A DNA stretch of 60,298 bases, counting the filler, from Hausera hauseri (Eukaryota): NCBI GenBank assembly GCA_046269625.1. It is 10 parts of 10 records of this genome, joined end to end, with 100 filler letters (N's around TTAATTAATTAA, not from the genome) between each part and the next. Parts side by side here need not be neighbours in the genome. Positions count along the whole stretch, not along the records: positions 28,325 to 32,751 come from JBJURY010587778.1; 9 more parts are not named here. One strand, given 5' to 3'. The notes beneath the pieces are model-generated. The model was not told the DNA's origin. It made no database searches and was given only the letters and a program-made list of their open reading frames with translations. Positions 1-52,399 of the stretch are shown here, in pieces; position 1 is the stretch's first letter; every line of letters begins with the position of its first letter. The position numbers were made by a program, and so were the translations under genes.

Positions 1-1491
1 GTTCCAGTTAGCTTTTTAGAAATGATAGTGACACCCCTATTAGGTAAGCTAACCCAATCCGTTTCGCTACGTCTAAACACTGGTTTACCCAAACTTGCCT
101 TACAGTCTTTTAGGATTGTGGGTTGTGTTGCGTTGTCTAGCAACACCCTAGTGAGGAGCATGGCTAACCGTGGAGTATTCTGATAAATCACAGGAAGCTA
201 TTGTATACATCGTTTTTCTTCGATATTAATTTGTACATTTCTTTTCTCGCACTCATATGTCAGTAGAACTTCGCAAGTAACTCGACCAAAGATTCCTTCT
301 CTCATGGGAATAATCTGTGAGGTTAACTCAGGGTTCGCGTAAATAAAAGCTAATTTTGTCCTGATAATCTCCGTATCCAATTTTCAATCATTATTTATTA
401 TTTTATGGTATAGTTCGGCTATTCCGACTTGTCCTTTATACTAAAAATAATCTTCCCTGTTTTTCAGATAATCCTGGATTCGAATATCCTGCGTTTCTAA
501 GTTATACATTTTCGCGTTTATCTCCGTTTCTGCGACGAAAAACGCTTCGTATTTAGTGGTGAACATTACTACTTCACAACGTAAAATCATTTCTTTTTTA
601 ATGAATTTCAATCCATGTTGATCAGAGACTAGTATCGTAGGTGTGTGATGTTCTAATGAGTCTTTACGTGCTCTGAAACTGGCGTCAAATTTGTCTACGT
701 ATTGTTTCCCGGTAGTTTCATTAAATTTCAGTTCCTTCATCTTAATAAAATTACAGCCCTTTCCGGAGGGCGGTTCCCTTATTACGACAGAACTTCAAAG
801 GGGACATGTTCAGTCTTGTGTGTGGCATTTTTGATTCTCGGTTTATAGCTTTGTCACATTATGGAACATAACTTTCGTAAAAGTCTACTACTACTACAAT
901 TGCTTCCAATCCTTTTCCGGTGTCGTATTCTGCTCCACTACATTGCCTATTATGCATATCTAGCCTTCCCACTACTATCTTATATGCTGTAATTATCTTC
1001 CCAGGCTGCATCTCTAGTTCCATACTATCCCATTTCAGTCTTCCGGTTTCTCTGGCCTGTTTGCAGTGTTGTCTTTCCAAATTCATTGGGATCGGAGGGG
1101 TTGTTGGTTTAATTACCGAGGAGTGTCCGTGCATTAGTCCACAATGAAAGATACTACCAGATCGTCTTAGCATACATTCCATGCCATCCAAAGATATCAA
1201 CTCTTGTTGTTGGTATAGGAAATAGCTCTTCTCCTTTGTTTCCAATTTATGGGGTCTAGCATCCTCGCATGCGTCTAAGTCCATTAGTGAATATTTCAGT
1301 CCGAGTTTAAATCTATCGCAATCGTAAACGTTAACAGCGTCCATCTGTTTTATCAACATGATTATGGTAAGTAAACTTATTAACCAATTAGATTCATTCT
1401 TTCGGTTGTTGTTATCCGTTGTCGTCAAGTTTCGTATGATGTATCCTAGTCCATTATTACTGTTCCTTTTGTCTTCTTCCTTGTCAAACAA
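1..1491 (-). pseudogene. env: Chuvirus-like / gB-type (class III) envelope glycoprotein, N-terminal and central ectodomain
   Basis: A hydrophobic signal-like segment WLISLLTIIMLIKQMDA is followed by VYDC..YSLMDLDAC, FHCG..GHSS, C..A..TG.L and C.G..Y. Downstream 'RTKLAFIYANP...GIFGRVTCEVLLTYEC...C..LPV.Y' is recognisably homologous to 28325-29500. Confidence 0.8.
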
Positions 1492-4400
1492 TTATGGCCA
1501 ATTAACTTCACATGGTAGTTTTCTACATGCTTTTCGCGCCAAACTTGTAGCTAGATTTAGTTTATTTTCCCGATTTGGATTTGTCTTAATTGACAAGTAC
1601 AATAATACTTTTCTTAGCTCTTCTATCGTATTCTACACCATAATCTTTTCAACTACTGCGTCGTCAGTTAGGCTACTTTTTTACAGTTTGAAACGCGAAT
1701 TTCTCATTGCCCTAGCAGCGTTAAATATGCCTTTTCTTTATCGTCTAATGTATCTCCTCGAAGGCTTGAATAATTTACAATACATATTACATTCTTCATT
1801 AAGTCGTTTAACTCTTCATTGTCTGTGCTAAAAGTAGGGATCGACATCTGTCTTAACTCTCTAATCAGCTCTCCGTTATAGTCAATTTCTTCTCGGGACT
1901 TCCTAATACTGCCGATTTGGCGTTTCGGTCTTGGAGCATTAGCTGGCATTCCACTTAACTGTACTAGATTCTTGTCGTATTGTTCCTTGTCTTCGTCTGT
2001 CTAGATACTCGAAATACATTTCCGCATCTCGTACTATCATGATTTTTCCTCCACATTGTTCCGTTTTAGCCTTTTGAGTGGTTTCTTTTTTTGTCTGTTT
2101 ATTGGCTATTGTTACTATTATACTATTCGCTTTGTCGGGATAATTCTGACGTCTATTAACTGTTCTAAATCGTCAAGTATTCTTCCACTAAAGTAAAATC
2201 TGTAATTTAGCTCATTTGTTCCGCCACTGTTTAGTAACCATTTTCTTACGTCCTTTACGTAGGAATAAGTGGTTAGCTCACATTCTTTTTCTTCCATCCA
2301 TTCGGATGGTATCAATATTTTCATTATTATATCAGGTTTAGCCTTCAAGATGTTGGCATACTTCTTTATCAAAAGTTTTGGCACAATGTTGTAAATTATA
2401 TTTTCACTGGATAATTTAGTCAAAGTCAGAATGAGTTGCCTGAGCTTATTTTTAGTCATATTCACATTAATTGATTCCATCAAGTCCTTCTCGGTTAACG
2501 CTGAGTCTACGAGCATCTCCACATTGAATTTCCTGTTCTGTGGATACATTTCTATTTCCTCTAGGTGTACTGGAGCTACCGGATTTTCTGACGTTATTTC
2601 TTCTAAATAAGCATCCCATTCTGGTTTATTCCCAATATCTGGGTGTCCATAGTCTACTAGAGCTGTGTTCGTTCATTGCACATTTTCTCAAATTTCTTTC
2701 AGTCTTGGTTGTATTTCTTTCATCTGCGTAGTTCGGAAACCTATTTCGTTTCCACAGGCATACTGAATCATTTTCAGTAGTTTGAATAATTCGTTAGAAT
2801 TGATTAATCCTTTCTGATGATACTCGGTTAGTTCAATAATTACATCCCTTTGCCATCTCTGCAAGAACTCTCACTTATTTTTGATCTCTGATTTGGTAAA
2901 AGCGTATTTAATCCGATAGCTTTCAAAATCTTTTGCAAGTTCACTTAGCCTCGTTGCTCTTTGTTTTGTTCTTATGCACGTTTCTTCAACTTGTTGTAAT
3001 TTGGGCATCAATTGCCTCATCTTCTTATTGTTAATCTCCGCCATTTCTACCAATAAGTACATTTCATTTACAATTTTTGAGTCGGGATCCATTGCGTCCA
3101 GCAATTTCTTTACGAACTTGGATTCTTCAACACTAAGGGGTTGGTTGTTTCTTATTTTTATCAATTCGATATAGCAATTCTGGTCCGTATCGTCCATCCA
3201 TTCTCGTGGTTTGTGCAAGAATCCTACTGCTTCTATTAGTGCTGCTCTATGTTTTGGACAAATACCTAAAGTTTCGATATCCTGGATCGAAATCTCGTCG
3301 ATAGGTTTTTCTGTTAAATGTTGGATTTCTTCTCGTCGGATGCTTCTTAGCTTAGAGTAAAAATTGCAAATCATATTCTGCTTTTCTGTAAAATTCGTTT
3401 CTGCGATCATTTTATATATTTCTTCCAATATTGTCATTTCTTGCTTCTTCTTCTTCATAAATTTTAATTGTCGTAATGATTTGAATCGTGTCCGGATGTT
3501 AATTTCTGTGTGTATGGTTTTTAAGTTACGTTAACTTTTTCTAGTTGCTTTTTTACAGATGGTTCACTTTTCGGAAATTCCTCCTTACGGTCTTCTACTA
3601 ATGTACTTAATCTCCTTATTAGTTCGTACCATTTTGACATTTGATTGGCGATTATTGGCTTGGATAATATTGCTTTGTCTAGCATTTTGTATGCATCTTT
3701 CAATTCATCATCTGGGCCTTTTATGAAGTTTATAAATTGGCTAACGTAATTGAGCTCATCCTTATATTCGTCGAGTTCTATGATGCAAGCTTTTATTATA
3801 TATTTGGATTCTTCATTATTCACAAACATGATTCGATTTCTTAAACTATTGATCTGCGATCTTTTTTCATTTTCTATTTTGATGAGACTCTACGTCCGCA
3901 CATTGTCTGGTTTCGACAAAGGCAATTTTTATCATCTCCATTAACGGAAAAATATCTATCGGGTCTACACCCAATATTTCTAAATAAGTATCACTTCGAT
4001 TGCTAACCGGTTTTTCTTTAAGCCGATTAATCATTGCATGACGTACCTCATGCACTTTGCTCTGTAAGTTACGAGTCACTATTTTCAACTTATAATTAGC
4101 TTCTAAGGTAGATAGCAGTGTTTGCGCTTTAGCGACTTTTACGCCAATATTATCGTCGTCTTTACTCCATCTTTCTGAAAATTCTACTCCACTCTTAATC
4201 AATGACTCTAATTAATGGTTCCATTTCATCAACGTATCTCGTGGCACCTCTTCTGGTTGTCTTACTTCAATTGCTTCATCGAGTTTCCCTTTACTCCACA
4301 ATTTCAAACTTTTATATAATTTCTATGTAAATTGTTGTTCCTTACAGGATATATCTGTTTGTTTACTGATCTGTTTAAGTCTCTCTGAATTGTGTCGGCG

Positions 4401-4857
4401 TATCTCTGGATCGTGTCATGTAATTCTCATTCTCTTTAGTTCGTCGGCGTTCTTCCATGAACGTCGAACTTTCCATTTTCTCGCATCACGATCATTAATA
4501 TCGTCCGTTTCTTTCTCACTAGCGGGAAGCGGACAAATTTTATTGATTTCGTCATTAACATTTATTATTTCTGGTGTCTTCAAGACTTCTGGAATCCCCA
4601 TTGGCGTGATGGAAGTATCTGAGGACAAGTCTCCTCCCAGGATAGCGGTATAAAGATCTTTTCTTTCCACGTCTTTTTTTTACAGAAGGCCGTGAGCGGG
4701 TCTTGGATCTTCTCTTAGGCGATGGGCTTTTACGTCTATTCTTTGTTATTTTAAGGATTAATGGCCCGATAAATTCGCTTTCAACTTCCTTTGTTATTTC
4801 GTCTGGGTTATGCACTACGGCTTCTATTTCTGCGTTTAAGTCTACGTTTTGAGATGT
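1492..4857 (-). pseudogene. Roughly 1100-codon accessory region of unknown function, including a ubiquitin-like domain at ~2118-2330
   Basis: ORFs 4555-4815, 4416-4670, 3867-4202, 3521-3829, 2871-3458, 2118-2549 and 1704-1949 are separated only by point stops or shifts. ORF 4555-4815 is in frame with gag after one stop. 'VKDVRKWL..GG.NELNYRFYFSGRILDDLEQLIDVRI' resembles the ubiquitin pattern '[21 protein letters not shown]'. Confidence 0.6.
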
Positions 4858-6077
4858 TTATGGTTTCTCTGACTGAGCTATTCCTTGGAGAATCGATTTC
4901 TTGCGCTCCATATTAACATTGTTCGGTGCCAGTGCATATTCTGCTTCCGTTTGTGGTTCTCTTAATCCATGATAGACTTCCATTAATCGTAATTTCTCTT
5001 CATACTCTTTTCTAGCCTTCATTGCTTGAGGATCTGTAGTTTCGCCTAGATTCCTCACAGATCTGCGTAGATCTTGCATTTCAATGATCAGGCTTATATC
5101 GCCTCGTTTACCGCAAATGGTTTCTAAGTTATTTTTAATCATACTTGTTTTGTTCGGTTCAGTAAATGTGACGGTTCTAGGATTTGGACATGATCTAGCG
5201 ATGTGTCCTTCTTTGCCACATGTAAAACAGATTAAATTTCCATTCCGACCAATCCTTTGTGGGCCATCCTCATTCACTGGTGATTTTGAGCTGTTTATAT
5301 TCTTATTCTGGCCCTGTAACATTTGTCTATTATCTCCATTATATCTATTATCATTATTCCGATTATCCGTATATTTAACATTGGGTCGGTAACTACCTTG
5401 GTTTCTATCTGGATTGTAACTTAATTTATTATACGAGTTATATGCATTCCGATTATTACAAGAATTTCTATCGTTTCTTTGATTCCTATTATACACATTT
5501 TGATTCCTGTTATCAAAACCTCGGTTCCGGTTATTATTATTAAATCGTCTGTTGTCTTGATTATCGTTTCTATTCCGGTTATTACTGTCATTATTCCTTT
5601 CATATTTGTCGCCTTGTTGGGCATATTTCTCCAAAGCCATTTCTAAGTCTTGGGCTAATTGTAACGTCCTTTCAAAATTATCGGGCCTGGCCAGAATTAA
5701 CTGTTTAACTAGATCTCTTGATCATATGCCATTTATTAACTGAGTCGTCATCATGACGTCTAAGTCTGGCGGCGTCGCCTTTTCCGCGGCATCACGTTCT
5801 GCGTTTGTCTTAGCTTTTGCTACGTTGGCTATCCTTAAAGTACTTACATAACTATTAGCGAATTTCTTTAATGCAAATGCAAACTGGGTTACCGATTCAC
5901 CCTTTTATTGCACTCTGTTTTGAAATGCCATAAGTTTTTGTTGCAGCGTCACTGTTGGCAATAACTTACGGTTTAAAGCTCCTACTATGGAGAACCAAGA
6001 TTTCTTTTTATCATTAGTAAGCGTTTATCAATAGTAAACGTTTTATTGTTACTTCAGGAGTGAGACTAGAACCTTCC
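4858..6077 (-). pseudogene. gag: Retrotransposon gag with CCHC zinc knuckle
   Basis: Capsid motif 'Q*KGESVTQFAFALKKFA' (~5860-5910), an N/R-rich linker, and the knuckle CFTCGKEGHIARSC in ORF 4858-5640. Confidence 0.88.
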
Positions 6078-15390: not shown

Positions 15391-15579
15391 TCGAACGCAC
15401 AAATTACCATGAGCTCATAATTGAGCACTACTACACACAAGAAGAATAATTGCGATCAAAAGTCACAATAATGAAAATATAATATTATTTCTCATAATTT
15501 GTTCGCTCTTCATTCTAATGTTCAATTTCGAAATATAGGATATTTGAAGTTGAGACTGTATTGGCTTGTTGTTGTTTGG

Positions 15580-16251: not shown

Positions 16252-17165
16252 AGGCCCGGAGTTATTGGGGTTACAGATATTTTAAAGTATTTGGTATGAA
16301 ATGGATTTTAGGAAGTCAAATAAAATAGCAAAGAAATTTTCTTTTCGAATGCCAGAATATCAGACCTTATTTGATGCGTTAGGTGGTTCAAGAATTTTCA
16401 CAACAATTTTGTTTGAACCGAGTAACACTTTGCGTCTCAACGGCCTCGGGAACGTTGCAGCCACTGGTGAACACACTGTTCGAAGACTTACTGTTTGCGA
16501 GTGTTTTCACGTACCTGAATGACGTGCTGATTTACTCAAAGACGATTTCGGAACATTGCAAACTACTAGGAGAGGTGATGAAAAGATTGAAAAATAAAAA
16601 TCTAAAAGTGAATCCCAAAAATGTAGGTTTGGTGTTTCGGAGTTGATATTTCTCGGACATACTATTAATAATCAGGGGGTTTCAACAAATCAAGTAAAAG
16701 TAAAAGAGATCCAGAATTTTCCAGTCCCAAAGTGTACGAGTTATAGCGTTGTTTGGCTAAAAGAGTGTGAGGAAAGTTTCAAGTAATTGAAATTGAAGCT
16801 ATGTGAAGCGCCAATATTAACCTTCATGGATCCAACGAAGGAATTTATTTTGGATACAGGCGCATCGTTTGGCGCAATCGGAATAGTACTCAGCCAACAA
16901 ATAGGAAATAAAGAAAAGGTAGTAGCGTATGCGTGTAGAACACTCTTATCTTTTGAGGTGTTCTGCGTTACAAGAAAGGAACTGTTGGCATTACAAGAGT
17001 TTATGCTGCATTTTAAACAGTATGTGTATGGTAAGCACTTACGGCTAGAACAGATCATAAGGCGTTGGTATATATAAAGACCGCTATCAAAACAATAACA
17101 CCACAATTCCAGACGTGGCAAGAAAACATGACAAATTTTAATTTTACACTCGAATTCAAGTAAAA
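16252..17165 (+). mobile_element. pol: Decayed gypsy pol fragment (RT - RNase H)
   Basis: MDFRKSNK, 'VFTYLNDVLIYSKT', 'FLGH.IN..G', 'KLCEAPILTFMDPTKEFILDTGAS..AIG.VLSQ', 'VTRKELLA'. Confidence 0.85.
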
Positions 17166-17217
17166 TTCCGCTTTAGCGGATATACCAACTGGCAGGGAAT
17201 TTTCAATCCAACCTAAG

Positions 17218-20200
17218 ATGGGTGACGAAGTGGCCAGCGTGGACGAGCTCACAGCTAACATGGCGACTTACGCCACAATGGACATTTTCGCGAACCAATT
17301 GTTGCCCAACAAATTCAGGAAAGGAGACGACATGCAGAAGTTCATTAAATGATGTGAGAAATTCATTAAATATATGAATGCCCCGGAGGCGGAGCGGGAA
17401 ATCATGGTTTGATGTCTCTTGGAGAAAGAAGCATAAGAAAGATACGAGGCAGTAGATGTGAAGATAACGGGATATCAAAACCAATTACGAAAGACTTTCG
17501 CCCGACCATCAACACTGTGCGAAGATCTGAAAGAGGCACTCGAGTACAAAATAAATGGAGCGGAACCGGAGGCTTACTTGAAAGCAATCGAGAAACTGTT
17601 GGATAAAATTATGAAACACGAATTTTCACTCGAGATTCTAAAAGAGGAACTATTGTTCCAATGTCGTAACAATAGAGAGATGAAAAGATTGATATGCCTC
17701 AATGGCAAACGAGACGCGGAAATCATAAAAGAGGAAATACGAAAGATACACGAAGTAAAGTTTAAAACAGAAGAAATCAGTTATCCAGGGTTCGGTAGAA
17801 GAAGCTACCAGGAAGTAGCAACATAAAATATCAAGAAACCCGTTCCTAGAACCAACACTACGCCAATTAGATCACCAAATAGTGGATTAAAGTGTTGGAC
17901 ATGTCGGATTGAAGGACATACGACAAGACCTTGCACCACATGAAGACTGACTAAATGTCTGGATGCTGAAAAGAAGAACATATAAATTGGCAGTGTCCCG
18001 AAAGAAAACCAATAACATGCGACGGATGTGGTCAGCAAGGGCACATCAGACGAAATTGTATAAACCTTAAGTTGTGCAAGATGTTACCATAGAGGACATA
18101 CCGAAAAGGAGTGCTACACAAGGCTGGAGGGGGAAGAAAACCAGGATGAGACACATAAAACAATAAAAGAAGGTTTGGGGATAATTTGAACAGAAAACGA
18201 GGAAGTCGCAAATGTAAAAAAAGAAGAAACAGAATAGAAACATGAGTCAGTTGCCCCAAAAGGGAGAGCCTCGATAGAAGTGTAGCAAATCGGGGCATTT
18301 CAATAGATTCAGTCTCCAAAAATATCGTTATGTATAATAGTAGTAATATATCAAACAAAACGGGAAATTTCGATGAAATATCCTGCAGCGGAACAGAGGA
18401 CATGGAGAACGATACGCAGATCTTCATGCTAGAATTGTATGCCGAACATATATCATACGAGTAGTTTAATGGACGACCAGGAATCAAGTTAAGAATAGAA
18501 GATAGATGGGATGATTACTTATTGGACACAGGGGCCAGGGTAAATGTCATAAGCTAGAAGACCGTTGATAAACTGACAAACATACATATAGAGAAATCGG
18601 ATGCCACACTACGATATGAGAATAATAGCCCCTTAGATTGCCTGGGTACAGTGACAATAGACGTAGAAATCAAGGGACTAAGGAGACGCGTAACATTCCC
18701 GGTAGTGTCAGAATTACGCCTGGAAATAATAGGTGGTATAGACCTGCAAAAAGCATTCGGAATAGAACTGAGATGGAAATGCAAGGAACGGAAACATTCC
18801 AACAAGACATAAGCAACCTGGAAGCCAAATTCGGCCGGAAGGTGTCTAACCAGGAACGAGTCAACAGGGTGAATGAAACTCTTCAGGTCAGTGACAATAA
18901 GGACCTACGCAACATTATGCAAAAGTACCCAGAGGTATTCATGGGCGACAAGTGTCACATAGAGTGCACACCTCTCATCAAATGCCGAATAGACACGACA
19001 GGAGCGCTGATTAATATCAAACCTCGCATGCAGCCAGTAAACCTAGAGACCATCCGAAACCTGTGGGAAAACGACATTATCAAACCATGTAACTGAGCAT
19101 GGAATACACTAATGATATGGGTGTGAAAGAAAGACAAGAAGGATGTCAGAATCTGTCTGGACTTCAGACAGCTGAATCTTATAACGGAACAGCAGGCTTT
19201 CCCATGCCTAACGTGGTAGAGATATTGGACAGGTAATACGGGACCATGTTTTTCACGACAATCGACCTAGAGAATGTATATTACCAAGTGGAGATAGCGA
19301 AAGACTCCAAACTGAAGACGGCGTTTTCAACCAAATTATTGCAATTCTGTTTTAACAGAATGTCATTCGGGGACATTGAACAAACAGTGGTATAGCTAGA
19401 TAATATACTAATCTTCTCTAAGACTCTAAAAGAATATTATAGGATACTCAAAATGTATTGGAAAGGATCAGGGAAGCAGATCTCGGGGTAAACCCCGAGA
19501 AATATCATATTTTAGAGCATATTGTGAATGACAAGAGGATACAAGCAGGCATCAAAACTGGAAGAAATTAAGTCCTTGGAGAAACCAAAATGTGTCAAGA
19601 ATTTGAGAAGCTTCTTAGTGATCTGCAACTATTACAGAAGATTTATCTAAGGTTACGCAGCAAAGGCAGGTTGAATAACAAGAAATTAACATGGACCGAG
19701 CAATGTAACGAGATCTTAGAGTCAATGAAAAGATCCCTAGACACCCCATCAATACTAGGTTTCCCTGATTTCAAGAGAGAATTTAGCCTCGATACGGACG
19801 CAACCTTCGATACAATTTGAGCTGTACTGTCACAGAAGGATAGTTTGGGACGCGGGAGAGTGATTTCGTACGGATCACACGCAATGATCAACCGTGAAAA
19901 CGGATATTGTATGACTCGAAAGGAACTACTGGCCATGTATTATTTTTGTGAACATTTCAACCATCACCTATACAGGAAACGGTTCACACTGAGAAAGGAC
20001 CACAAGGCAATAACGTTCATGGTAAAGAAAAAAAAACAATATCTGCCTAAATTCAGACGTGGATCAACTACCTATCCAGTCTATACATCAACGTAGAGTA
20101 CAAAAAAGGCACCGATGATGCGAACGCAGATATGCTATCCCACACAAGTTACGAAACATGCAGCCAATGTCTACAACAACCCGACGACGCCAAAATGCAG

Positions 20201-20457
20201 AAAAGCAAGACTCGGAGGATAAACGTCCTAGAAACAGCAGAAACATACCAATACCAGAAAGACAGCAAAGAAATCGAAGAAATAAAAGAAAGCATTGCCC
20301 GAAGAAAACAAAGAAGATTTATGCTAGGAGATGGAATAATAAAAACACAAACAGGTAAAATTTGGATACCAACGAACAGACGAGTAGAAATGATAACGCA
20401 TAACCATGTCATGCTGTCTCACGCAGGATCAGAAAAGGTAATAAAATACATTGACAG
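17218..20457 (+). mobile_element. Decayed gypsy element: gag (several CCHC knuckles) - protease - RT - RNase H - start of integrase
   Basis: Knuckles CWTCRIEGHTTRPC and CDGCGQQGHIRRNC (~17890-18120), LLDTGARVNVI (~18520), CLDFRQLN, IDLENVYYQV, YLDNILIFS-like motif, FSLDTDA, TRKELLA, and an integrase H..LSHAG. Many stops and frameshifts. Confidence 0.9.
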
Positions 20458-24685: not shown

Positions 24686-25704
24686 TTAAAAAATCAAATG
24701 GCTCTCAGAACTCATGCCATATTTTAATTTGTTTTCTTCAAATAAATCATTGAGGCAATTAAAATATTTTTCATGAAGATGGTTCACCTCTTCCTCCGTG
24801 GGATTTTCACGTTTTTCAACAGAAATCGGAGTACCAACAACTGTTACCAATGGTTTCTTTATGGGGCATAAATCCAAACGTATAGTTGAATACTCCTCGA
24901 CCATAAAACAATGGCGGAGAATTGTGAAAACGCCGTTTAAACCATTCTTGAAACGAACGAAGATATGATCCTTGAGGATTCTTTACTTAAGTAAACAATT
25001 CATTTTCATGAAATCCAAAACATGGAACTAAATCGACACAATATTTTAGAGCCCATTTTGACGAAACCTTTACGGTCTTTCAGTTTAAGTTTCAAAGCCT
25101 CCGGACGACATTCCAATTCTTCTTCAGCACCCCCAATAACGATTATGACCGCATTTCCCTTACCGCATTTCGTAAACAAATATCCGATACTTTCCTTACT
25201 CGAATCACTAATCCCGAATGATAACAAATACGTTAGAATAAATGGATGATAATAATTATTAACCAAAGTTAATAAAATAGATTTAATCCCGGAAAACAAT
25301 TTCGTAATTCCTGTAGCCTCCATGGAAAAGTTACAAAATGCTCCACAAACCAAAATCCCATGGGGATGATAACCAAATAAATAATTTTTACTCGGATCCA
25401 AATCAGGAGTTTTCACCAAACTGATCGGAAAATAATCTCGATAATACGTCCATATTTTCCATCGTCGAACGCACTCAAATCGTCTTCCACCGGTTTTCTG
25501 AGTGTCCCGTTCGTAGACAATGACCCAGAGTACATACAGCAATGTCAACGGCCAGAAACTGGTAAACAAACTGTAAATTACAATCAATCAACAGATAATG
25601 GGACCAAATATAAAGAACCAAAACCTTTGGGCTACGACAAATGTTTGCAGTCGTCTCTCAAGTTGAATAAACAGCGGACAGAATTCAATTCCTAATATTT
25701 TCAT
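24686..25704 (-). pseudogene. DGAT2/MOGAT-family acyltransferase, full length, intronless, disrupted
   Basis: MKILGIEFCPL..LERRLQT, YYRDYFPISLVKT..LDP.KNYLFGYHPHGIL (HPHG motif), GGAEE, RKGFVK, TVVGTPI.V, LHEKYF..L..LFEENK. One in-frame stop (~25590) and frameshifts near 25050-24900. Confidence 0.9.
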
Positions 25705-28324: not shown

Positions 28325-29862
28325 TGATGATAACTATGAGTGAGTGCGAATATGATAATGGCGAATGTGATACTGGAGAATCGAAAATGACATGGGAAAC
28401 CTCGGCAAGTAAATGTCAGTTAACGCTGCTAAAAGAAGGAAAGTTTAACAAAACAGTAGGAAAACGGCGGAAAAAGAAACAGCTACATATAAAGAAGGAA
28501 CAAAGGAAGTCAAGATGGCAGAAGTGGCTACAATTGTATATTCGGAAAACCCAGAAGAAATGACGCGATTCAAAATCACTGGAGTAGCAAATAAGTGTAG
28601 CGAAGAAATATCAAAAACCAACTATAAGTGTATATTCTTACCGAGAAAAGAAATACCCCGTGCGAAAACCAAAATAGACAAGAAAGATATAAAGCTAACA
28701 CAATATTTCGATAACAAGATCGATTTTCTAATCAATTACGTAAGGAAAGAAATTAGAGGTTTATATCGAGAAATAATAATGAATGAGTGCAAATTGAACT
28801 ATAAAATAATGCGTAATAAAATGGCATTGGTAATAACGAATCCCGACATGGTAGCGCCAGTAATGCCCTTTGGCGATGGAATTATTGGAAGAGTGATGGA
28901 CTGATAACAATAGAATGCAAAAAGGTGGAAGGATCAATGAGGCCAGTAGACGAATGTACAATGGAATTACCCGTAGTTTATCACTCAGAAGCGCGATATG
29001 TTATGCCTGTGACTAGGATATTAATAGATATTAATGTAAAGTCTACTGTACTATACAATTGCACTTTTAATATGCCGCCAATGTTTAAGATCGACAACGA
29101 CAAATGGATTAGAATGCCAAAAAGAGAACTAGTGTCTAAACCGGAGATGTTAAGTTTGATTAATTTGCAAAGGAATCAGAAATTTGAACCGTTGACAGGA
29201 ATATCACAAGGAGGAATCTATACCCAACAAAATCTAGAAGACTATTGACGAATGTTGTTATTCCCACAACAAAGACAACTAGTTATAACAGAACTAACCA
29301 GGAGAGTAATGTGGGATGTCGAAGGATCACCACAATGGGAAAACCTAATGGGGAAGGATTATCTAAAGAAAGTAACAAGAAATATTATGGAGATGTGGGG
29401 AAAGTTCCTATATTTTGGCCAAGCAGCTTCCGGTTTTCTAGATATATATTTTTTATTAGCACCTTACGGACAATATTTACGGCACTAGCATATGGAATAC
29501 ATGCAGCAGTAGGATGCTCATGGAAAATTCTAATAGCCGTAACACCGGCAGTAGTCAGTTGTTTCCTAGCAAACCACGACACACTATGGAAAAGGAAGAT
29601 TCTACAAAGGAAAGATGGAAAAGATTCCCCGTATAGCATACCTGATGATAACGATATTGAATGTGATCAAGTAAAAGTAAAAGCTAAACATAGACGAATG
29701 ACCGGTATTAAACAAGTAGTGCTTAAGACACGAAAGCCGAAGTATAGACAGAAGTTAATAACTGATTTACCCCATCTAGATCCCGTAGATGAATACCATG
29801 GAGAGTTATATAACGAGCAACAATTAGTGAATCCTTCAGCTCCCCGATACGTAGTGCATACA
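28325..29862 (+). pseudogene. env: Chuvirus-like / gB-type envelope glycoprotein, C-terminal half, membrane anchor and tail
   Basis: CEYDNGECDTGESKMTW...C, YFDNKIDFL, C.L..KIMRNKMALVITNP, GIIGRV, C.KV....RPVDECTMELPVVY, P.TRIL, C....PPMFKI...W, GGIYT, LLFPQQR, WGKFLYFGQAASGFL plus a hydrophobic stretch, and a tail with PSAP. Confidence 0.85.
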
Positions 29863-29959
29863 NNNNNNNNNNAACAAAATTTTGACGAAAATGTGATACA
29901 CAATAAACGTGAATCTACGTATAAAACTTATGATAAAAATGAACAACAACAACCACCTA

Positions 29960-32751
29960 TAAGGCCAGAAAGGGAGATAGAGGTGAATTGATACCCAATG
30001 ACGGCTTTGCTAGACACTGGATCTACAACGACGATAATGGGAAGAAGCCAATTACCAAAAGAGTTAACAAAAAACTACGAAGACCGACAACTACCTTTGT
30101 GAATGTAGGAGCATTCGTCACAGAAGAGGAAATTAAGATGGTCTTAGATGCCAAAGTTAAGATCGGTGAACAGATTGTGAAACAAACTATACGGATAGCA
30201 CATAATCTGACTAACGAGATTCTAATTGGATGTGATATACTAAACCAATTGGAAAATGTTTATATAGGTGTGAAAACATGCCAACTTAAGACGTTCAATG
30301 GAGATCGTAACGAGAGAATGGTTTCTCTAACAAGAGACATCACGATTCCACCACGATCAGAGATAGTGGTACCTGGAGAAATAGAAAGTCGTGCATACCG
30401 GTGGTTACATATTTTCAACCATTCCCACAGGTTATGGAAAAATTTGAAGTCCTAATCGCCCGTCACGCAGACAAATTAAGAGACGGAAAAGTCCTCTTAC
30501 GAATTTGTAATACAACAAACAAAGAAAAACGATTACAGAAGGATATTAGACTGGAAAAAGTAACAATCACTGAAGAAATAATAAAAGAAGAAAATTGCTC
30601 AATAATTTCAGATGTAAATAAAATAGAAAAGATAATGACAGAAAAACTGAAAAGGAAATCAGACGGAGACAAAAGAAGAAAGAAAACCACGAACATCAAT
30701 TGGAATGAGAGGTTACAAAAATGTAAAATCTTAAATAAGAAAGAGAAGGAGATGCTAATCGAATTGTTGGAAAAGAATAACAGTCAATTTGCACAAACTG
30801 ATTATGATCTAGGCACAATGAAAATAATACAGCATACCATTAAGTTAAAAGAAGGGACAAGATAAACCAATTAAGAAAAGACCATATTGATTAGCATACG
30901 ATAAAAAAACAGGAAGCGAGTAAAATAATAAACGAAACGAGAGAAAACAAGATAATTCGACCAAGTTGTTCCCCATGGACAGCGCCAGTGGTAATGGTCA
31001 AAAAGAAAGACGGAACTATGATATTTTGCATAGATTATAGAGCATTAAACGAAATAACGGAGACGGATACATATCAATTACCAAGAATTGACGAAATACT
31101 AGATAAACTACACGGATCGACAATATTCTCAACCATCGATTTACAAAAGGGTTACTGGCAAGTGGAGGTGAAAGATGAAGACAAACCAAAGACAGCCTTC
31201 TCAATTAGAGAAGGGCTATGGAAATTTAATAGGATGCCATTTGGACTAAAGAATGGACCGCCAACATTTCAGAGAGGGACCGAACTCCTGCTGTTAGATG
31301 CCCCACATGCCATGGTATATATAGATGACGTAATAATAGTTCCACCAAATTTTCAACATCTAAGGGATCTACAAGATCTCTTCGATAGATGCGAAATAAT
31401 GGGTCCAAAAATAAACCCAAAATGTTCATTTGCTCAAACGGAAGTAGACTTTCTCGGGAACAGAATAGATAGAGATGGTGTAAAACTGCAAGACAAGCTG
31501 TTAGGAAAAATAAGAGATTTCCCAAAGCCAGGTACAGTTAAAGAATTACGTCAATTTTTAGGTTTGGCAAACTATTACCGAAGATTTATAAAGGATTTTA
31601 GCAAAATTGTGAAGCCCTTGTATGAATTAATACGTGTAGACTTAGATAAAGTTATTTAGACGAATGAATGTGAAAAAGCTTTTGAATATTTAAAAGATAA
31701 ACTGTTAACTGCTCCTATATTAATCTATCCTGATATGATCAAACCATTTATTTTAGCAACAGACGCAAGTGATTATGGTGTAGAAGTGTTGTCACAAAAG
31801 GGTGAAGACCGTAAGGAACATCCAGTAGCTTACGCTTCACAAAAAATCAATAAACACCAGAAGTATGCGGTAATTGAAAAAGAACTATTGGCAGTAATAT
31901 TTTTCTTGGAAGTATTTTCGTCCTATATTAGTGCAAATAAACCTTTGATAATCTACACAGATCATAGACCACTTCAATGGTTAAAACAACATGAAAATCC
32001 AAATAGTAGACTACTACGATGGACTCTAAAGTTGCAGCCATATACACTGAATTTCCAGTATAAGCCTGGAACACGAAACGCAAGTGCGGATTACCTATTC
32101 AGAATACCCAATAAACCAGAAACAGAGAAAGCAGTAGTCGCAGCCGTATGGAGGATGGATGGATCCGTAGAAAAAATCAAGGCAAATCAAAATGAAGATA
32201 CTGAAATAAAAGCCATTAGAAATATATAAAAGATAAAACCATGTCAGCTGACAGGGAATTAGCTCGCCATCTGGCCAGATTCAGTGAAGCTTATGAAGAG
32301 AAAGAAGGATTTTTATACTTCGTTCACCAAAACAGACCCGCTTTAGTAATTCACAAGAAAAATAGAACAGTTTTGTTAACTCAATGCCATAATGGACTAC
32401 TTGGTGGACATCAATCAGCAAACAAAACACTTAATAAGTTTGAACGAAAATACTTTTGGCCGACGATAACGAAAGATGTACAGGATTGGTGTGACAGTTG
32501 TAATTTATGTGCTATCCTGAAGAACACGGGAACCAAATACAAAGCACCTCTCAAAGTATAGGACAACCCTCCGGCACCATTTGAGTTTACCGCAATGGAT
32601 ATAACAGGACCACTACCGTTAACACGGAATGGAAAAAGATATATCCTAGACATTATTGACTATTTCACTAGATGGGTTGTTGTCCTACCAATGGCTTATA
32701 TGAAGGCAGATACAATCGCTAAAAAATTTGTGGAAAATATAGTATTTAATT
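29960..32751 (+). mobile_element. pol: Gypsy pol: protease - dUTPase-like spacer - RT - RNase H - integrase (truncated)
   Basis: RPEREIEVN*YPMTALLDTGS (LLDTG at 30007-30021), ILIGCDIL, ITIPPRSE, FCIDYRALN, MPFGLKNGP, YIDD (~31318), FLGLANYYRRFI, LATDAS, EKELLA, TDHRPL, integrase H..LLGGH..C..C and IIDYFTRW. Confidence 0.93.
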
Positions 32752-32990: not shown

Positions 32991-34285
32991 TATTGCATGG
33001 TTATAAGTAAATGGACACTACAAAAATGTCGACAGTAGAGTTTTATAATAAAACACAAATTGTACAGTGACAGTTTACTTCACATGACGCATTATTGTGT
33101 GTATTGTATGTTGTAGGTGTTAATTAATTTTTACAAATGCAAATTTTGATTCCTTACTTCATTTTCGTATTGTCATTGTCATTATCCTTCCTTCATTTAA
33201 ATCCTTTTTTTATTCTGTCATTTCCATTTGCATTATGTCTCGCACAGCTGGTGCTAATGGAATATCGGATTTTATAACAGGTCGTATTGTTGGACAGTGG
33301 GAAACAGGAAGGTCTCAACACAATATTGTCGCTTCATTGAATATTCCTGTTTCCACAATTAACAATGTCGTTAGCCAATTTCGTCGTGGATGGCCAAAAC
33401 GAATTCAACGCTTTCTTCGAAACATCAGACGAAGTATTGAATGTAATCTTCGTCAATCTGCTACGCAAATCGCACAAGAAGCTTCTGTGTCTGTAAAAAC
33501 AGCTCGACGTTATTTGAAAAAATTTGGCGACAGCGGGAGAGTAGCAAAACGAAAGTCTTTACTGTCTGCAACGAATTTCACAAAACGTTTATCCTGAGCG
33601 AGGTAGGCGAGTCACAAACCTAACGCTTTCTGGCAAAGCGTCATCTTTAGTGATGAAAATTCCTTTCAGCAATACCCTTCTGGAGGCCGTACCTGAGTCT
33701 GACATCGTCCCAACCAAAAATTTCAAAACAAGCGTCTCCGGCCAACTGTGAAACACAGTTTTAGTGTTTTGGTGTGGGGAGCTATTTGTTGGAATGCGAG
33801 ATCAGATCTGATACGTTGTCCAGGTTCAATAAATTCAATAGCTTATTATCAACTACTTCAAGTTGGGCTTCTTTCCGCCTACCAAGTTGGAAGTATTGTA
33901 CAAGAAAATTTTCTCTTCATGCAAGACAGCGGGCCTTCCAACGCCGCTTGAGCAACCAATGCATGGCTGGGACACAAAAACATTTCATGCTTAAATTGGA
34001 CTGCTCAGTCACCGAATATAAATCCGATTGAGTCACTGTGGTTTATTTTGGATCAAGCAATGCCAAAACGAGAAGGCACGCCAAAATTTGCTGATTGTCA
34101 ATTCTATGCTCTTAAAAAGGAATGGGCAGCGTTCCCACAAGCCAAAATCACTAAGTTTATCCAGTATATACCAGAACGTGTATATGAACTGTTAAATGCC
34201 AAAGGAATATCAACTAAGTATTAAAGTATGCATTTTATGTCTGCATATTGTCATTTTCTAGGGTGTCCGTTTACTTATGATCAGC
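32991..34285 (+). mobile_element. Tc1/mariner DNA transposon with decayed transposase (33235-34224)
   Basis: TIRs ATAAGTAAATGGACAC (left, ~33003) and GTGTCCGTTTACTTAT (right, ~34263). Transposase motifs: HTH N-terminus, WQSVIFSDE, VLVWGAI, FMQDSGP, SPNINPIESLW, NAKG..TKY*. Confidence 0.9.
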
Positions 34286-37382: not shown

Positions 37383-39570
37383 TTCGTGATTGTCATTTTA
37401 AAATCTGCCCAATGAGCCGGTATTCTGCACAGAAGCAATTCTGGAGTACAACGAAACATGGTTCGCACAACAATGGCGACGCCGTACTGATCAACAAACT
37501 GCATAGTGCTGCAGAACTTGAAAAAACGCAAATTAAATGGAATATAAAAAGCTTCCAGGAACTGTATTACAGTATGGTTCGATTATACAGCTTCTCCATA
37601 TCTAGAGTAACAAAATACTAACTGTCAATAAAAAGCTCCCGGCTTTGTTAGAAAAAACGCAATGCGGGTGTATTTAGACGTTAATGGCAACGAAGGATCT
37701 TGGTTATATGTTCAACCGTTTTATAAACACTGTTCAGTTGGCGATAATATTGTTGTTGGGGACAAAGCGATATTGAATCCCGTCAACGCTGGGCAACCAT
37801 TGCATGTTAGTCATTACGATTTATTAGATCATATCGAATGCAACGAAGTAAATGCTGTGAACTGTAGTACATCATCGTAAATCACACTTTTCATGGATTT
37901 CAAGGAAAATATTGACGATGTTTTAAAAGGGTGAAATCTTGTGAGACTGTTTCATACCGAACAAGAAAAGTTTTTGACCTGTGATGAATACAAAAAGGAA
38001 AGATACGTTTTCCTTCATACAATAGCTCGCGCAACTGTAACTCCTGCAACGGGTATTCCAATTGATAGGGATGCTGAAAAACCAATCATGCACAACGTAT
38101 GCTGTGCTTTGTTGGAGGAAGACAAAGAAGCTTTTGCAGTTGCACCGATATCTGCTCAAAAAGTTCCAGATTTAGATTTTTCTAACGATGCCAGTAAAGT
38201 ACTTTCTGTTGTAAAGCAAAAAATTATACAGCTCGCCGCCAATGATAAAATTGTCTATAACCTTCTTTCCTTAATTGTGCAGTTCCTTTGTTCACTGGAG
38301 GACACAACTGGGGACCCATTAGAATTGGAAGTAAAATGCATTACTAGATATCGTCGGAAATTATCAAAAGAAAAAAATATTTTGAAGCAGATTTTTAAAA
38401 TACTCGAAAGTCCACTGTTAACCGATTTCCCCATTAAAATGGAAGACTTATCTGATCAGAAAAATATCGCGTTTAAAAATATTTGCCGGCTTTGTTACAG
38501 AATTCTAAAACTATTCCAGCAAGACTCGGAAGAATCAGGAATACATTGCAAAGCAACTTCCGATGATGCAAAAAAGATTGGCTGCGGCATTTTGCCTGAA
38601 GATACTGTGACTGCTTTGTTGCATAATAATCGGAAACTGCTAGAAAAACACATTACAGTATCTGAAATAAATACTTTCATAAATTTAATACGGAAGGGAA
38701 CAGATAGCAGATTTTTGGATTACTTATCAGATTTATGTATATCAACAATATTGCCATCCCTGTGACACAGGAATTGATCTGCAAATGTATATTTAATGAA
38801 GAAAATCAGGATATTCTGATAAAGACATTTATATACAAGAAAATTGAAATTGAATATGAAGTTAAACCCGATTATGGATTTGAAGATGATTACGTATTAA
38901 ATATGGCTGAATATGATAAAATCAAGGAAGCGCAGACAATTTTATAAACCGAGGAAGAAGACACAATCATTTATTGGGAATGTGGAAAACATTCTAGAAT
39001 CTTTTAGAATTAGTTCAAGCAGCCAATAATGGCTCCAAAGATGATGAATCAATTCTAAGCTATTACAGATGTCAGTTTGTACTTTTCTCGAATCTTTGTT
39101 TGGACCGTCAGTATTTGGCCATAAATGACTTATCAAGAGAACAAAGTACAGATCTTATGTTAAGTGCATCTCCACTGATATGTTGCCACATAGTCTTCGT
39201 GCCTCATTTTGCCGTTTGTTGATACATTTACATGTGGATAGAGATCCACAAAATGTTACGCAATCTATTAAATTCGCAAGACTATAGGCTGACCTCCCGG
39301 AATCAATGGATATTGACAGTAACGAAACTACAGACTCGGAAGACGAAGTCAAGGAGGAAGTGAAACAAAATTTTACACCAGTTATCAGCTTTGTAGAAGA
39401 ATGACTAAATAATGTCGTCAATAACAATTTAATGCTCTCAATTCAGAACAAAATAAACTTACATTCGAGATTGAAACTGGTTTGACATCTTATATATTTT
39501 GGTTTCTACTCATTCCATGATTTACTTCAGTTAGTGAAAACTTTACTAAGAATTCTGGATTGTGTCATCC
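37383..39570 (+). pseudogene. ITPR: Inositol 1,4,5-trisphosphate receptor N-terminal fragment, intronless and disrupted
   Basis: [139 protein letters not shown]. No introns seen over ~2.2 kb. Internal deletion, stops and frameshifts. Confidence 0.93.
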
Positions 39571-39880
39571 CTTCAAAGACACCAACTTCGGACCTTTCGA
39601 TAACCTTTGCATATCCAATTTTGTATGGAAACAAATCGCTTCCAAAATCAGAAATGAAAAATTATTTAAACTGTGCCGATCAAATAATGCGTATTTCAAA
39701 CGAATATTTCGCTTCTACACACAAAATAAGCTTATTGATTACCAATTTCGGCGTGTTTTGCAACCTTACAGTCTCCGCTTTATCCGCTCCAGATATTTAT
39801 GTGCGACTGCCCATTAAGACTGACGAACCCCGATTCATTAAACGCAGTGAAACAAGTAAGAATTCGGCCACCCTGCATTT

Positions 39881-40563
39881 TGGTGCCCGCCCCGCCGGGG
39901 CGGAGGTCCCGACCGCCAACCCTGCGCCGGTTGGTCGGACGGTATCTTCGGCGTCGGCCCCACATCACGCCCCCAGGCGCACCACTTTCACTTCCATTTT
40001 TTTAACAATATACATATCACCACCTTCAATACAACACATCCACACATTCCCGCCCTTCAAACATGCGTTTCTTCCTTACTTAATTCTTCCGACTTTTACC
40101 TTACCCATAACAACGCTCTCATACATTTCAACGGAACTCTACCTTCTTTCTCAAATCACACTTGCTTCAACATACATCTCCGTATCAGCGGTGGCATGAA
40201 TTCTTCGGCAACCATTGACACCACGGATACAACCACTACAAAAAAGGCAATACCCATTCTCTACTACCCCAAACCAAACCATCTACCTACTTCAATCGAT
40301 GCAAATTCTTCTCACAAAAATCCTACCAATACTTCTCCACATTGCACTGAATACTTCATAGATAATGAAAAGTCCAGCAAAACTTTGCTCCACTTCCATC
40401 AACTCTGGTTATAGTCCAACGGTATCACAGACTCGTTATCCGAAGCCCATAACCTACTTTATCTTCTACCAAACTCTATAAAGGCCTCAATCCATAACCT
40501 ACTTGACATCTTTCAACACTCTGACCCTTATACCCAATTGTTCGATGCTGTGTTAAAACAGAC
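39881..40563 (+). mobile_element. CsRn1-like gypsy 5' fragment: PBS-like motif, GC-rich leader, truncated gag (ATG 40196)
   Basis: TGGTGCCC at 39881 is followed by hairpins (CCGCCCC-GCC-GGGGCGG). The gag N-terminus MNSSATIDTTD...DPYTQLFDAVLK is homologous to that starting at 50774. Confidence 0.7.
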
Positions 40564-40564
40564 A

Positions 40565-41065
40565 TAAGAAGACGATGCTTATCTTCGACGTCCAATCAGC
40601 ATGCGACCTGACTTTGTTGATGTATATCAAAACAGAGGAGACATTTTATAAAACTTGGCAAATCGGATGAAGCAAGAAATAAGTATATAACCGCACTTCA
40701 ATATAGGCAAAACAGTGCAGATTTGCACTACAATTTGGGTGTTGTAAATATGGAAATGAAAAGGAATGATGAAGCTATTAATTGCTTTTATGCATCGCTC
40801 AAAATTGATCCCAATCATAAACACGCACGGTTAAGTTTGGCATCGTTTTATTCTGACAATCCAGAGAAGCGAGAAGAAGCCAAAACAATATATTATGACC
40901 TAATAAAACTAAATTTCGAAGTCGAGAAATGTCATTTTGCTCTTGCTATGATGGAAACGGATGATAAAATTTCCAACTTGCTGAGAAACATTATCTTCAG
41001 TCGCTAAAGTATGATCCAACGTCTCGTGGATCATTATTCAATCTTGCCTTATTGCATAACAATGA
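40565..41065 (+). pseudogene. TPR fragment of a TMTC-family (TMTC3-like) protein, intronless and disrupted
   Basis: ISMRPDFVDVYQNRGDIL, ADLHYNLGVV..E....EA...F..SLKIDPNHKHA, LAMMETDDK, RGSLFNLALL follow the order of the TMTC3 TPR region. Confidence 0.7.
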
Positions 41066-48239: not shown

Positions 48240-48890
48240 GGTATTGTCACAGAAGGATAGTTTGGGGCGCGAGAGAGTGATTGCGTACGGATCACACACA
48301 ATGAACAGCCATGAAAGGGGATATTGTATTACTCGGAAAGAACTACTGGCCATGTATTATTTCTGTCAACATTTCAACCATTACCTATACGGAAAACGCT
48401 TCACATTAAGAACAGACCACAAGACAATAACGTTCATGGTAAAGACAAAAAAACCAATAACAGCCCAATTTCAGACGTGGATCAACTAACTATCCACTCT
48501 AAATATCAACCTGGAGTACAAAAAAGACACAGATCATGCAAACGCAGATATGCTGTCTCGCACAAGTTGCGAAACATGCAGTTAATGTCTACAACAACAT
48601 GACGATGCCAAGATGCAGAAAAGCAAGACTCGAATGATAAATGTCGTAGAAACAGCAGAAACATACAAATACCTGAAGGACAGCAAGGAAATTAAAGAAA
48701 TAAACGAAAGCATTGCCAGACGAAAATAAGAAAGATTTATACTAGAAGACGAAATAATAAAAACAGAAACAAGTAAGATTTGGGTACCAACGAACAGACG
48801 ATTAGAAATGATAACGCATAACCATGTCATGCTGTTTCACGCAGGATTAGAAGAGGTAATAAAATACATTGACAGTAACTATGACATGGA
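48240..48890 (+). mobile_element. pol: Gypsy RNase H - integrase start, same family as 19822-20457
   Basis: High nucleotide similarity to 19822-20457 (VLSQKDSLGR, TRKELLAMYYFC, TDHK, NADMLS, HNHVML.HAG). Confidence 0.92.
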
Positions 48891-52220: not shown

Positions 52221-52399
52221 GCAGCATTTCGGTGACCACCCGGGCGATCGCTTCCAGCAAGTCAATACTAAAGGAAACTGTGGTGCCCGCGCCGATCGTC
52301 GTCCTCCGGCCCATTCTGCTGGGCACGGCCGGGTTTTCCGTTGCCGACGCGTCGAGCACATAGGCAGGCCCCGATTTTCTTTACTAAAAATGTTAACAT

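What the first reader, a model, noticed from the sequence alone, without database searches (positions are those of the whole stretch)
28325..32751. Envelope gene upstream of, and in frame with, protease-pol in a gypsy element
Seen: a chuvirus/gB-like glycoprotein and its tail run into 'RPEREIEVN*YPMTALLDTGS' in the same frame. The single TGA is probably a mutated GGA, and the ORF track misses the protease active site. No gag or zinc knuckle lies between env and protease. Established: env-bearing LTR elements are normally gag-pol-env. Inference: with contig 1-6077 (gag - accessory - homologous env), the order is gag-X-env-pro-RT-RH-IN in one membrane-threaded polyprotein. Caveats: a 10-N gap of unknown true size lies at 29863-29872, and the two contigs are different families.
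Basis: partly seen in the sequence, partly recalled or inferred. Interest (0 to 1): 0.8.

Follow-up and report, generated by a model that had tools for sequence, protein, structure and literature searches.

The report
Decayed gag-env-pol gypsy retroelement fragment
This is a broken remnant of an invertebrate retrovirus-like element whose herpes-gB-type envelope gene sits in front of, rather than behind, its enzyme genes; the layout is real but has already been described in flatworms, nematodes and bryozoans.

Summary
The order is real. Contig 28325-32751 runs env (PF24664, gB-like) - tail - protease - RT - RNase H - integrase, with no zinc knuckle in between. 'In frame' holds only for the last membrane segment, tail and protease start. 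The copy is decayed (8 frame switches, 5 stops), and one switch splits the env transmembrane helix.

The 10-N gap is unlikely to hide a boundary. Env and RT independently group with the same uninterrupted polyproteins (P0009, P0010, P0016, P0216), and env-to-protease spacing (167 aa) lies within that of relatives. P0010 carries knuckle-X-env-PR-RT-RH-IN in one chain.

The architecture is published: planarian Burro (PMC6431247) and GAG-ENV-POL errantiviruses of Nematoda, Bryozoa and Platyhelminthes (PMC13524379). By eye, the nearest envs resemble the Schmidtea set.

Two residual leads:
- Env tails of this family are enriched in late-domain-like motifs (LYPxL, PSAP), suggesting budding driven by the env tail. 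I did not find this in the searches I ran.
- The host may be an annelid, which would be a new phylum for this layout; this is unresolved.

The parts
28327..28898 (+). gB-like env ectodomain, middle part; two frames with a switch near 28462; 5' part of env cut off by the contig end
   Evidence: PF24664 E 7e-11 on 28449-28901; tblastn to P0004 317-511 and P0010 561-760
28901..29455 (+). env ectodomain C-terminal part and start of the transmembrane helix; in-frame stop at 29246; frame switch near 29455 inside the TM
   Evidence: PF24664 positions 380-561, E 6e-33; profile of relatives matches 29132-29458, E 4e-30; stop list
29458..29589 (+). end of env TM and conserved GxSWK hydrophobic hairpin, same frame as the protease N-half
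   Evidence: profile of 10 intact relatives matches 29464-29589, E 3e-4
29590..29961 (+). env cytoplasmic tail / linker to protease; PSAP motif at 29833-29844; contains the gap
   Evidence: sequence; motif scan
29863..29872 (.). 10-N assembly gap of unknown true size
29962..30390 (+). retropepsin protease; in-frame TGA 29989-29991, DTG 30013-30021, frame switch near 30090; the C-terminal piece runs into a region that aligns weakly to the PR-RT linker of relatives
   Evidence: PF00077 E 4e-5; tblastn
30413..30900 (+). PR-RT linker; Burro has a dUTPase-like domain between PR and RT (PMC6431247); no Pfam hit here; stop at 30892
   Evidence: tblastn to P0009, P0016, P0216 at 21-27%; no Pfam family at E 0.05
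30904..32220 (+). reverse transcriptase (YIDD 31318-31329) and RNase H; in-frame stop at 31657
   Evidence: RVT_1 E 4e-24, RT_RNaseH E 3e-30; 46-50% identity to P0009, P0010, P0016, P0216
32232..32750 (+). integrase zinc-binding domain and start of the core; stop at 32559; cut by the contig end
   Evidence: Integrase_H2C2 E 2e-17, rve E 3e-4
5182..6075 (-). second element (other contig, other family): gag-like region ending in a CCHC knuckle at 5229-5182
   Evidence: PF00098 E 3e-6; no capsid Pfam hit
1393..5181 (-). second element: accessory region X, about 1,260 codons, decayed, unassigned; weak ubiquitin-like lead near 2330-2140
   Evidence: no Pfam hit better than E 0.04; Atlas lead 0.82 only; not confirmed
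3..1392 (-). second element: internal signal-peptide-like segment (about 1392-1342) and N-terminal two thirds of a gB-like env
   Evidence: PF24664 E 1e-15 and 9e-15; hydrophobic segment; env tree

Best explanation
WHAT IT IS (shown). A decayed, doubly truncated copy of a Ty3/gypsy element of the GAG-ENV-POL kind with a gB-type (class III) envelope. HOW INTACT MEMBERS ARE BUILT (shown in relatives). One reading frame runs gag/knuckle - accessory X - internal signal peptide - env ectodomain - TM - tail - protease(s) - RT - RNase H - integrase. HOW IT WORKS (inferred). The internal signal peptide threads env into the ER, and signal peptidase separates Gag-X from env. One TM returns the chain to the cytosol, and the second hydrophobic segment lies along the membrane without crossing it. 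Pol is therefore made tethered to the env tail and is freed by its own protease once env clustering lets the protease dimerise. This tethering would bring the enzymes to the budding membrane in place of the usual Gag-Pol fusion. Late-domain-like motifs in the tail (LYPxL, PSAP) probably recruit ESCRT (more speculative). This copy cannot be translated as it stands.
For: ORDER. RELATIVES: 150 best of 350 hits were listed and 16 scanned with Pfam. Nine of 16 have env followed by protease in one chain, 3 of 16 go on to RT-RNase H and 2 of 16 to integrase. P0216, the 1 of 120 listed RT hits with PF24664, is env-PR-RT-RH-IN. A CCHC knuckle precedes env in 4 of 13 proteins checked, and P0010 has knuckle, env, PR, RT and IN in one chain. 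TREES: the RT tree of 99 rows puts the window in an 11-row clade with all four env-pol proteins (SH-aLRT 98). The env tree puts both window envs among the env-PR polyproteins (97). SPACING from GxSWK to DTG is 167 aa here against 90-173 in 9 of 10 relatives and about 350 in P0007. FOLD: the AlphaFold model of relative P0004 (39% identical to the window env piece; pLDDT 79.5) matches HSV-1 gB, E 1e-13. TOPOLOGY: a signal-like segment precedes env in 9 of 9 relatives checked and in contig 1-6077. The first C-terminal segment scores 0.5-2.6 against 4.0-7.7 for the second in 11 of 11 relatives, on a recalled insertion scale. The model of P0012 shows one long helix, a kinked hairpin, a disordered tail and a retropepsin fold. 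MOTIFS. LITERATURE: PMC6431247, PMC13524379.
Against: Neither contig holds the whole element: no LTR, primer-binding site or gag on 28325-32751, and no pol on 1-6077. Frame continuity in this copy crosses a gap and several lesions. Kyte-Doolittle windows flag the second hydrophobic segment in the window (1.77) and in P0013 (1.71), so single-pass topology is not proven; the insertion scale was recalled and is not a validated predictor. The window's RT has a long branch (0.82) and sits at the base of the clade. The word-index env search for longer proteins found nothing (0 of 184 candidates). No LYPxL motif is visible in the window's own tail. The relatives are unnamed predicted proteins, with no evidence of expression seen.
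Confidence: 0.9

Rival explanations
1. The gap hides a boundary: env belongs to an upstream canonical gag-pol-env element and the pol to a second, tandem or nested element.
For: The gap size is unknown; ten N can be a placeholder (recalled). Canonical IN-then-env proteins exist in this env family (P0147).
Against: Env and RT independently pick the same polyproteins. The contig is colinear with P0009, P0010, P0016 and P0216 across the gap. Spacing is normal. The protease begins 90 bases after the gap with no gag remnant.
Confidence: 0.04
2. The TGA before the active site is a programmed boundary (read-through), which would set the env:pol ratio.
For: One stop between a structural gene and the protease is where some retroviruses use read-through (established knowledge). 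A single polyprotein otherwise implies 1:1:1 stoichiometry.
Against: The stop lies inside the PF00077 match. Nine of 16 scanned relatives are annotated as one chain from env into protease. The copy has four other stops and eight frame switches.
Confidence: 0.04
3. The order is as described, but part of the lesions are sequencing or assembly errors and the element is younger or still intact in the genome.
For: By eye, two of the frame switches lie at A or T runs. P0003, a 203-aa fragment 77-87% identical, is open across the lesions at 28900 and 29246.
Against: There are five in-frame stops as well as indels, and the RT branch is long. Contig 41901-44174 holds an unbroken 758-codon frame, so errors are not pervasive.
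Confidence: 0.12
4. Env crosses the membrane twice at its C-terminus, so Pol would be luminal in the full-length product and must be made by another route, such as splicing or failed translocation.
For: There is a conserved second hydrophobic segment with Kyte-Doolittle 1.77 in the window and 1.71 in P0013. PMC13524379 notes gB-type ectodomains flanked by a signal peptide and a TM or by two TMs.
Against: The second segment is short, has Lys/Arg and a Pro kink, and scores worse than the first in 11 of 11 relatives. Stand-alone glycoproteins of the family also end in a long polar tail.
Confidence: 0.08

Closest known systems
GAG-ENV-POL HSV/gB-type errantiviruses (Chary and Hayashi, eLife 2026, PMC13524379), especially Schmidtea mediterranea Smed_errantivirus_1-6 (C1a)
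   Same: Gene order and gB-type env. The supplement's Smed env rows share motifs, by eye, with the window's nearest relatives (YQES.F, TP.VLMS, KCG..V..TNY..IYVS) and, for the last two motifs, with the window pieces. This is an eye comparison, not an alignment.
   Different: This copy is decayed and truncated. Host is not determined and may be outside the three reported phyla. The main text has no occurrence of 'polyprotein', 'late domain', 'ESCRT' or 'Burro'.
Burro/GYPSM1 giant gypsy elements of planarians (Arkhipova and Yushenova 2019, PMC6431247)
   Same: Gag with CCHC - accessory domains - env - PR - linker - RT-RH-IN in one frame; called there the first case of in-frame env between gag and pol. 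Relative P0004 has a weak Bcl-2 hit just before env (E 1e-3), as in Burro.
   Different: Giant size and BIR, MATH, ankyrin or BCL2 domains are not shown here. X of contig 1-6077 gave no confirmed domain. No named Burro sequence was available for the tree.
Nematode endogenous retroviruses, NERVs (Sacco et al. 2022, J Gen Virol)
   Same: Env placed before pol (as cited in PMC13524379); a continuous gag-env-pro-pol frame (recalled; paper not held).
   Different: All 36 nematode rows of the eLife table are Chromadorea. No named nematode is among the 120 listed hits of the window's DGAT gene.
Chuvirus-like glycoproteins in BEL/Pao elements of mosquitoes (Dezordi et al. 2020, as cited in PMC13524379)
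   Same: Same env family (PF24664).
   Different: Pol here is Ty3/gypsy-like, env precedes pol, and the window envs group apart from the DUF5641-bearing P0116.

Membership tests
Ty3/gypsy (Metaviridae) | PR-RT-RNase H-IN order with gypsy-type RT and H2C2 integrase | tested here: met
   RT hits named as 297/412/Ty3-type polyproteins
Ty3/gypsy (Metaviridae) | LTRs and primer-binding site | not testable with these tools
   both ends lie beyond the contig; no long direct repeat inside
GAG-ENV-POL gB-type errantiviruses | env of HSV/gB (class III) type | tested here: met
   PF24664 on the window; fold of relative P0004 matches gB; the window's own piece was not folded
GAG-ENV-POL gB-type errantiviruses | env upstream of pol on the same element | tested here: met
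GAG-ENV-POL gB-type errantiviruses | gag upstream of env | tested here: inconclusive
   off-contig for this copy; knuckle present in contig 1-6077 and in 4 of 13 relatives checked
GAG-ENV-POL gB-type errantiviruses | intact ORFs (inclusion criterion of the published set, not of the lineage) | tested here: not met
   8 frame switches, 5 stops
GAG-ENV-POL gB-type errantiviruses | cysteine-bridge class in env domains I-II | not tested
   domains I-II are mostly off this contig; only an eye comparison with the C1a rows
Burro/GYPSM1 | single frame gag-X-env-PR-RT-RH-IN | tested here: inconclusive
   met in P0010; this copy is broken and partial
Burro/GYPSM1 | accessory BCL2, BIR, MATH, ankyrin, Ubi/SUMO-like domains | tested here: inconclusive
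   none confirmed in contig 1-6077; weak ubiquitin lead; X is off-contig for 28325-32751
Burro/GYPSM1 | giant size (internal region up to 25 kb) and RT grouping with Burro | not testable with these tools
   4.4-kb contig; no named Burro sequence among fetched proteins
NERV (nematode) | chromadorean nematode host (recalled; consistent) | tested here: inconclusive
   DGAT groups with two annelids and unnamed rows; no named nematode or flatworm in the tree
NERV (nematode) | RT monophyly with NERVs | not testable with these tools
   paper not held; no named NERV protein fetched
BEL/Pao with chuvirus glycoprotein | BEL/Pao pol with env downstream | tested here: not met

The most novel reading that the evidence does not exclude
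These elements are enveloped invertebrate retroviruses in which the env cytoplasmic tail has taken over two jobs that Gag does in orthoretroviruses: carrying Pol to the budding membrane and recruiting ESCRT through LYPxL and PSAP late-domain motifs placed just before the protease, like HIV p6. The slot between Gag-X and protease is a swappable type I membrane-protein cassette: P0179 has a signal-ectodomain-TM module there in place of env. If the host is an annelid, the layout also extends to a fourth phylum.
Probability: 0.35. Interest if true: 0.55.

Novelty: new member of a known kind. Interest (0 to 1): 0.27.

Why it matters
As found, little: it is one more, broken, copy of a layout in print since 2019. 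What remains open is how a gag-env-pol polyprotein threads the membrane, sets its stoichiometry and buds. Neither paper that I read addresses this in the passages seen. The tail motifs give a direct test. If they work as late domains, budding signals would sit on the fusogen and not on the capsid protein, in these elements and in many stand-alone glycoproteins of the same family.

Tried and rejected
Searches and tests that led nowhere:
- Word-index search of the env piece among longer proteins: 0 of 184 candidates; the full HMMER scan then found 350.
- Sacco 2022 is not held. One literature search returned only noise because of the term NERV.
- Rfam: 0 matches in the window. No LTR-like repeats in either contig.
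- Bcl-2-like domain in contig 1-6077: no support (no profile hit; hhalign score 8.4, below the best shuffles).
- Ubiquitin-like domain there: Atlas 0.82 lead, no PDB hit, hhalign 17.6 against a best shuffle of 17.35 of 20. Unconfirmed.
- Atlas on 2874-3530: nothing. dUTPase-like Pfam in the PR-RT linker: none.
- Host from DGAT: the nearest three hits are unnamed (60-63%), the best named is Owenia (57%). The tree clade with Owenia and Paralvinella has support 97/82, but no named flatworm was in the 34 rows, which I picked from the 120 listed. Not decisive.

Not run or not seen:
- No complex prediction was run.
- Figures of the eLife paper (trees, cysteine alignments) could not be seen and may bear on clade assignment.
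Full report
1. Observation. The window is ten contigs joined by artificial spacers, and the finding is one whole 4,427-base contig with a 10-N gap at 29863-29872. Translation and Pfam give, on the + strand: PF24664 fusion glycoprotein (28449-28901, E 7e-11; 28898-29488, E 6e-33), retropepsin (E 4e-5), RT (E 4e-24), RNase H (E 3e-30) and the first half of integrase (E 2e-17). The quoted peptide is present, with TGA at 29989 and DTG at 30013. No CCHC knuckle occurs in any frame. The copy is decayed: eight frame switches against intact relatives and five stops. A profile of the env C-terminus from ten relatives matches 29132-29458 in one frame and 29464-29589 in another, so the break lies inside the TM helix. 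The piece that shares a frame with the protease is thus true env sequence, but only its last part.

2. Relatives. A full HMMER scan with the env piece found 350 proteins and listed 150. I scanned 16 with Pfam, chosen for rank or length. Nine have env followed by protease in one chain; three continue to RT-RNase H and two to integrase. One (P0147) has the canonical integrase-then-env order and one (P0116) is BEL/Pao-like; both rank low. An independent RT search (120 listed of 6,078) returned one protein with PF24664, P0216, again env-PR-RT-RH-IN. A knuckle lies upstream of env in 4 of 13 proteins checked, and P0010 has the whole order in one chain. The hosts of these proteins are unknown.

3. 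The gap. An RT-RNase H tree of the 99 sufficiently long rows out of 123 hits places the window with P0009, P0010, P0016, P0216 and six others (SH-aLRT 98, quick search; 56-row version). All eleven share a two-residue shorter stretch before YxDD; two distant long-branch rows also have it. The env tree (42 rows) puts both window envs among the env-protease polyproteins (97). So the two sides of the gap have the same nearest kin. The contig is colinear with those proteins. The distance from the GxSWK hairpin to the triad is 167 residues, against 90-173 in nine relatives and about 350 in P0007 (the first regex missed P0007's first triad, so I took it from the triad list of the same call). A hidden LTR or gag is unlikely but was not excluded directly.

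4. The second contig. 1-6077 (minus strand) has a knuckle, about 1,260 decayed codons, a signal-like segment and env. The two envs are about 31% identical with no DNA match, so they cannot be joined as one element; the gag-X part of the model rests on intact relatives. Burro-type accessory domains were looked for and not confirmed.

5. Fold and topology. The model of P0004 (54-row alignment, pLDDT 79.5) matches herpesvirus gB throughout the listed hits (best E 1e-13, TM-score about 0.33). The model of P0012 (pLDDT 67.8) shows a long helix containing the TM, a kinked hairpin, a disordered tail and a retropepsin. An approximate insertion score with recalled values favours the first segment as the only crossing in 11 of 11 relatives. 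Kyte-Doolittle flags the second segment in the window and in P0013. Single-pass topology, with Gag-X and Pol both cytosolic, is inferred and is the only simple way for one chain to work. The steps of signal-peptidase cleavage, tethered protease activation and 1:1:1 synthesis are inference from established retrovirus biology.

6. Tail motifs (post hoc). A hydrophobic-Y-P motif occurs in 9 of 11 polyprotein tails (shuffled mean 0.71; 0 of 1000 shuffles as high). Strict [LIVM]YPx[LI] occurs in 5 of 11 and P[ST]AP in 2 of 11. In the last 60 residues of 68 glycoproteins of 600-720 residues (mostly stand-alone), the strict motif occurs in 18 and P[ST]AP in 9 (shuffled means 0.24 and 0.36). The motif precedes the protease in only 1 of 17 gypsy proteins outside the clade. 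The window has PSAP at 29833-29844 and no visible LYPxL; the gap lies where relatives have it. That these patterns bind ALIX and TSG101 is recalled retrovirus knowledge. The patterns were chosen after seeing the data, and the sequences are related. YxxL-type sorting signals are an alternative reading. Two searches (listings only) and the eLife main text showed no report of it for this family.

7. What is known. [quoted passage not shown] PMC13524379 (abstract, passages, sections 14 and 22, and rows or parts of supplement files 2, 3 and 7 plus a few matched rows of files 5 and 6) reports GAG-ENV-POL elements with gB-type env in Nematoda, Bryozoa and Platyhelminthes, not monophyletic, following Sacco et al. 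2022. That last paper was not seen; Grohme 2018 and Jurka 2007 were seen only as cited. By eye, the six Schmidtea env rows share motifs with the window's nearest relatives.

8. Host. A decayed DGAT2-like gene on another contig has unnamed nearest hits and Owenia as best named hit. It groups with Owenia and Paralvinella (97/82) in a tree lacking named flatworms or nematodes. An annelid or a flatworm are both possible. The eLife genome table lists raw ENV-POL hits in 9 of 22 annelid genomes, though its text reports curated GAG-ENV-POL elements only for the three other phyla.

9. Verdict. This is a new, broken member of a known kind. It works like Burro and the Schmidtea GAG-ENV-POL elements; formal membership in Burro or NERV could not be tested. 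Interest 0.27, carried mostly by the tail-motif lead.

Noticed in passing
window 41901-44174 (+): Unbroken 758-codon frame, open at the contig start: a small Cys-containing module, a TM, a second hydrophobic segment and a region that looks like a 3'-5' exonuclease by eye (no Pfam hit). The module matches a profile of the post-integrase ectodomain modules of P0009, P0010, P0169, P0170, P0173 and P0179 (9.3 bits, E 3e-4; best of 10 controls 5.1). It may be the 3' end of another element of this clade.
   Followed up: partly
P0009, P0010, P0169, P0170, P0173, P0179, P0181 (database proteins): After integrase the frame continues into a signal-like segment, an ectodomain and a TM: a second membrane protein in the same polyprotein. 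P0179 has such a module before the protease, where env would be.
   Followed up: partly
P0005-P0009, P0013, P0169: Tandem retropepsin domains, two to four per chain; P0009 has one after integrase.
   Followed up: no
P0004 9-70, P0007 N-terminus, P0017 about 1260-1325: Bcl-2-like segment just before the env signal peptide, as reported for Burro (PF00452 E 1e-3 for P0004 only; the others by eye).
   Followed up: partly
window 24700-25670 (-): Intronless, decayed DGAT2/MOGAT-like gene (PF03982 E 2e-61), probably a retrocopy; used for the host estimate.
   Followed up: yes
window 37935-41004 (+) and 53134-53562 (+): Fragments of an IP3-receptor-like gene (RIH, MIR), a TPR gene and a Ulp1/SENP protease; apparently gene pieces among repeats.
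   Followed up: no
window about 7800-15450: Long degenerate microsatellite-like array (GAAC/GAAA-type units), with identical frames repeated 3,555 bases apart; source of many spurious ORFs.
   Followed up: no
window 16252-20457, 48240-48630 and 50912-52360: Other decayed gypsy-like pol and gag fragments; 635 bases at 88% identity are shared between the ends of two contigs.
   Followed up: no
window 33124-34230 (+) and 54812-56469 (+): Decayed Tc1-like transposase (PF01498), and fragments that look like a Polinton-type DNA polymerase B by eye (no Pfam hit on the two pieces scanned).
   Followed up: no
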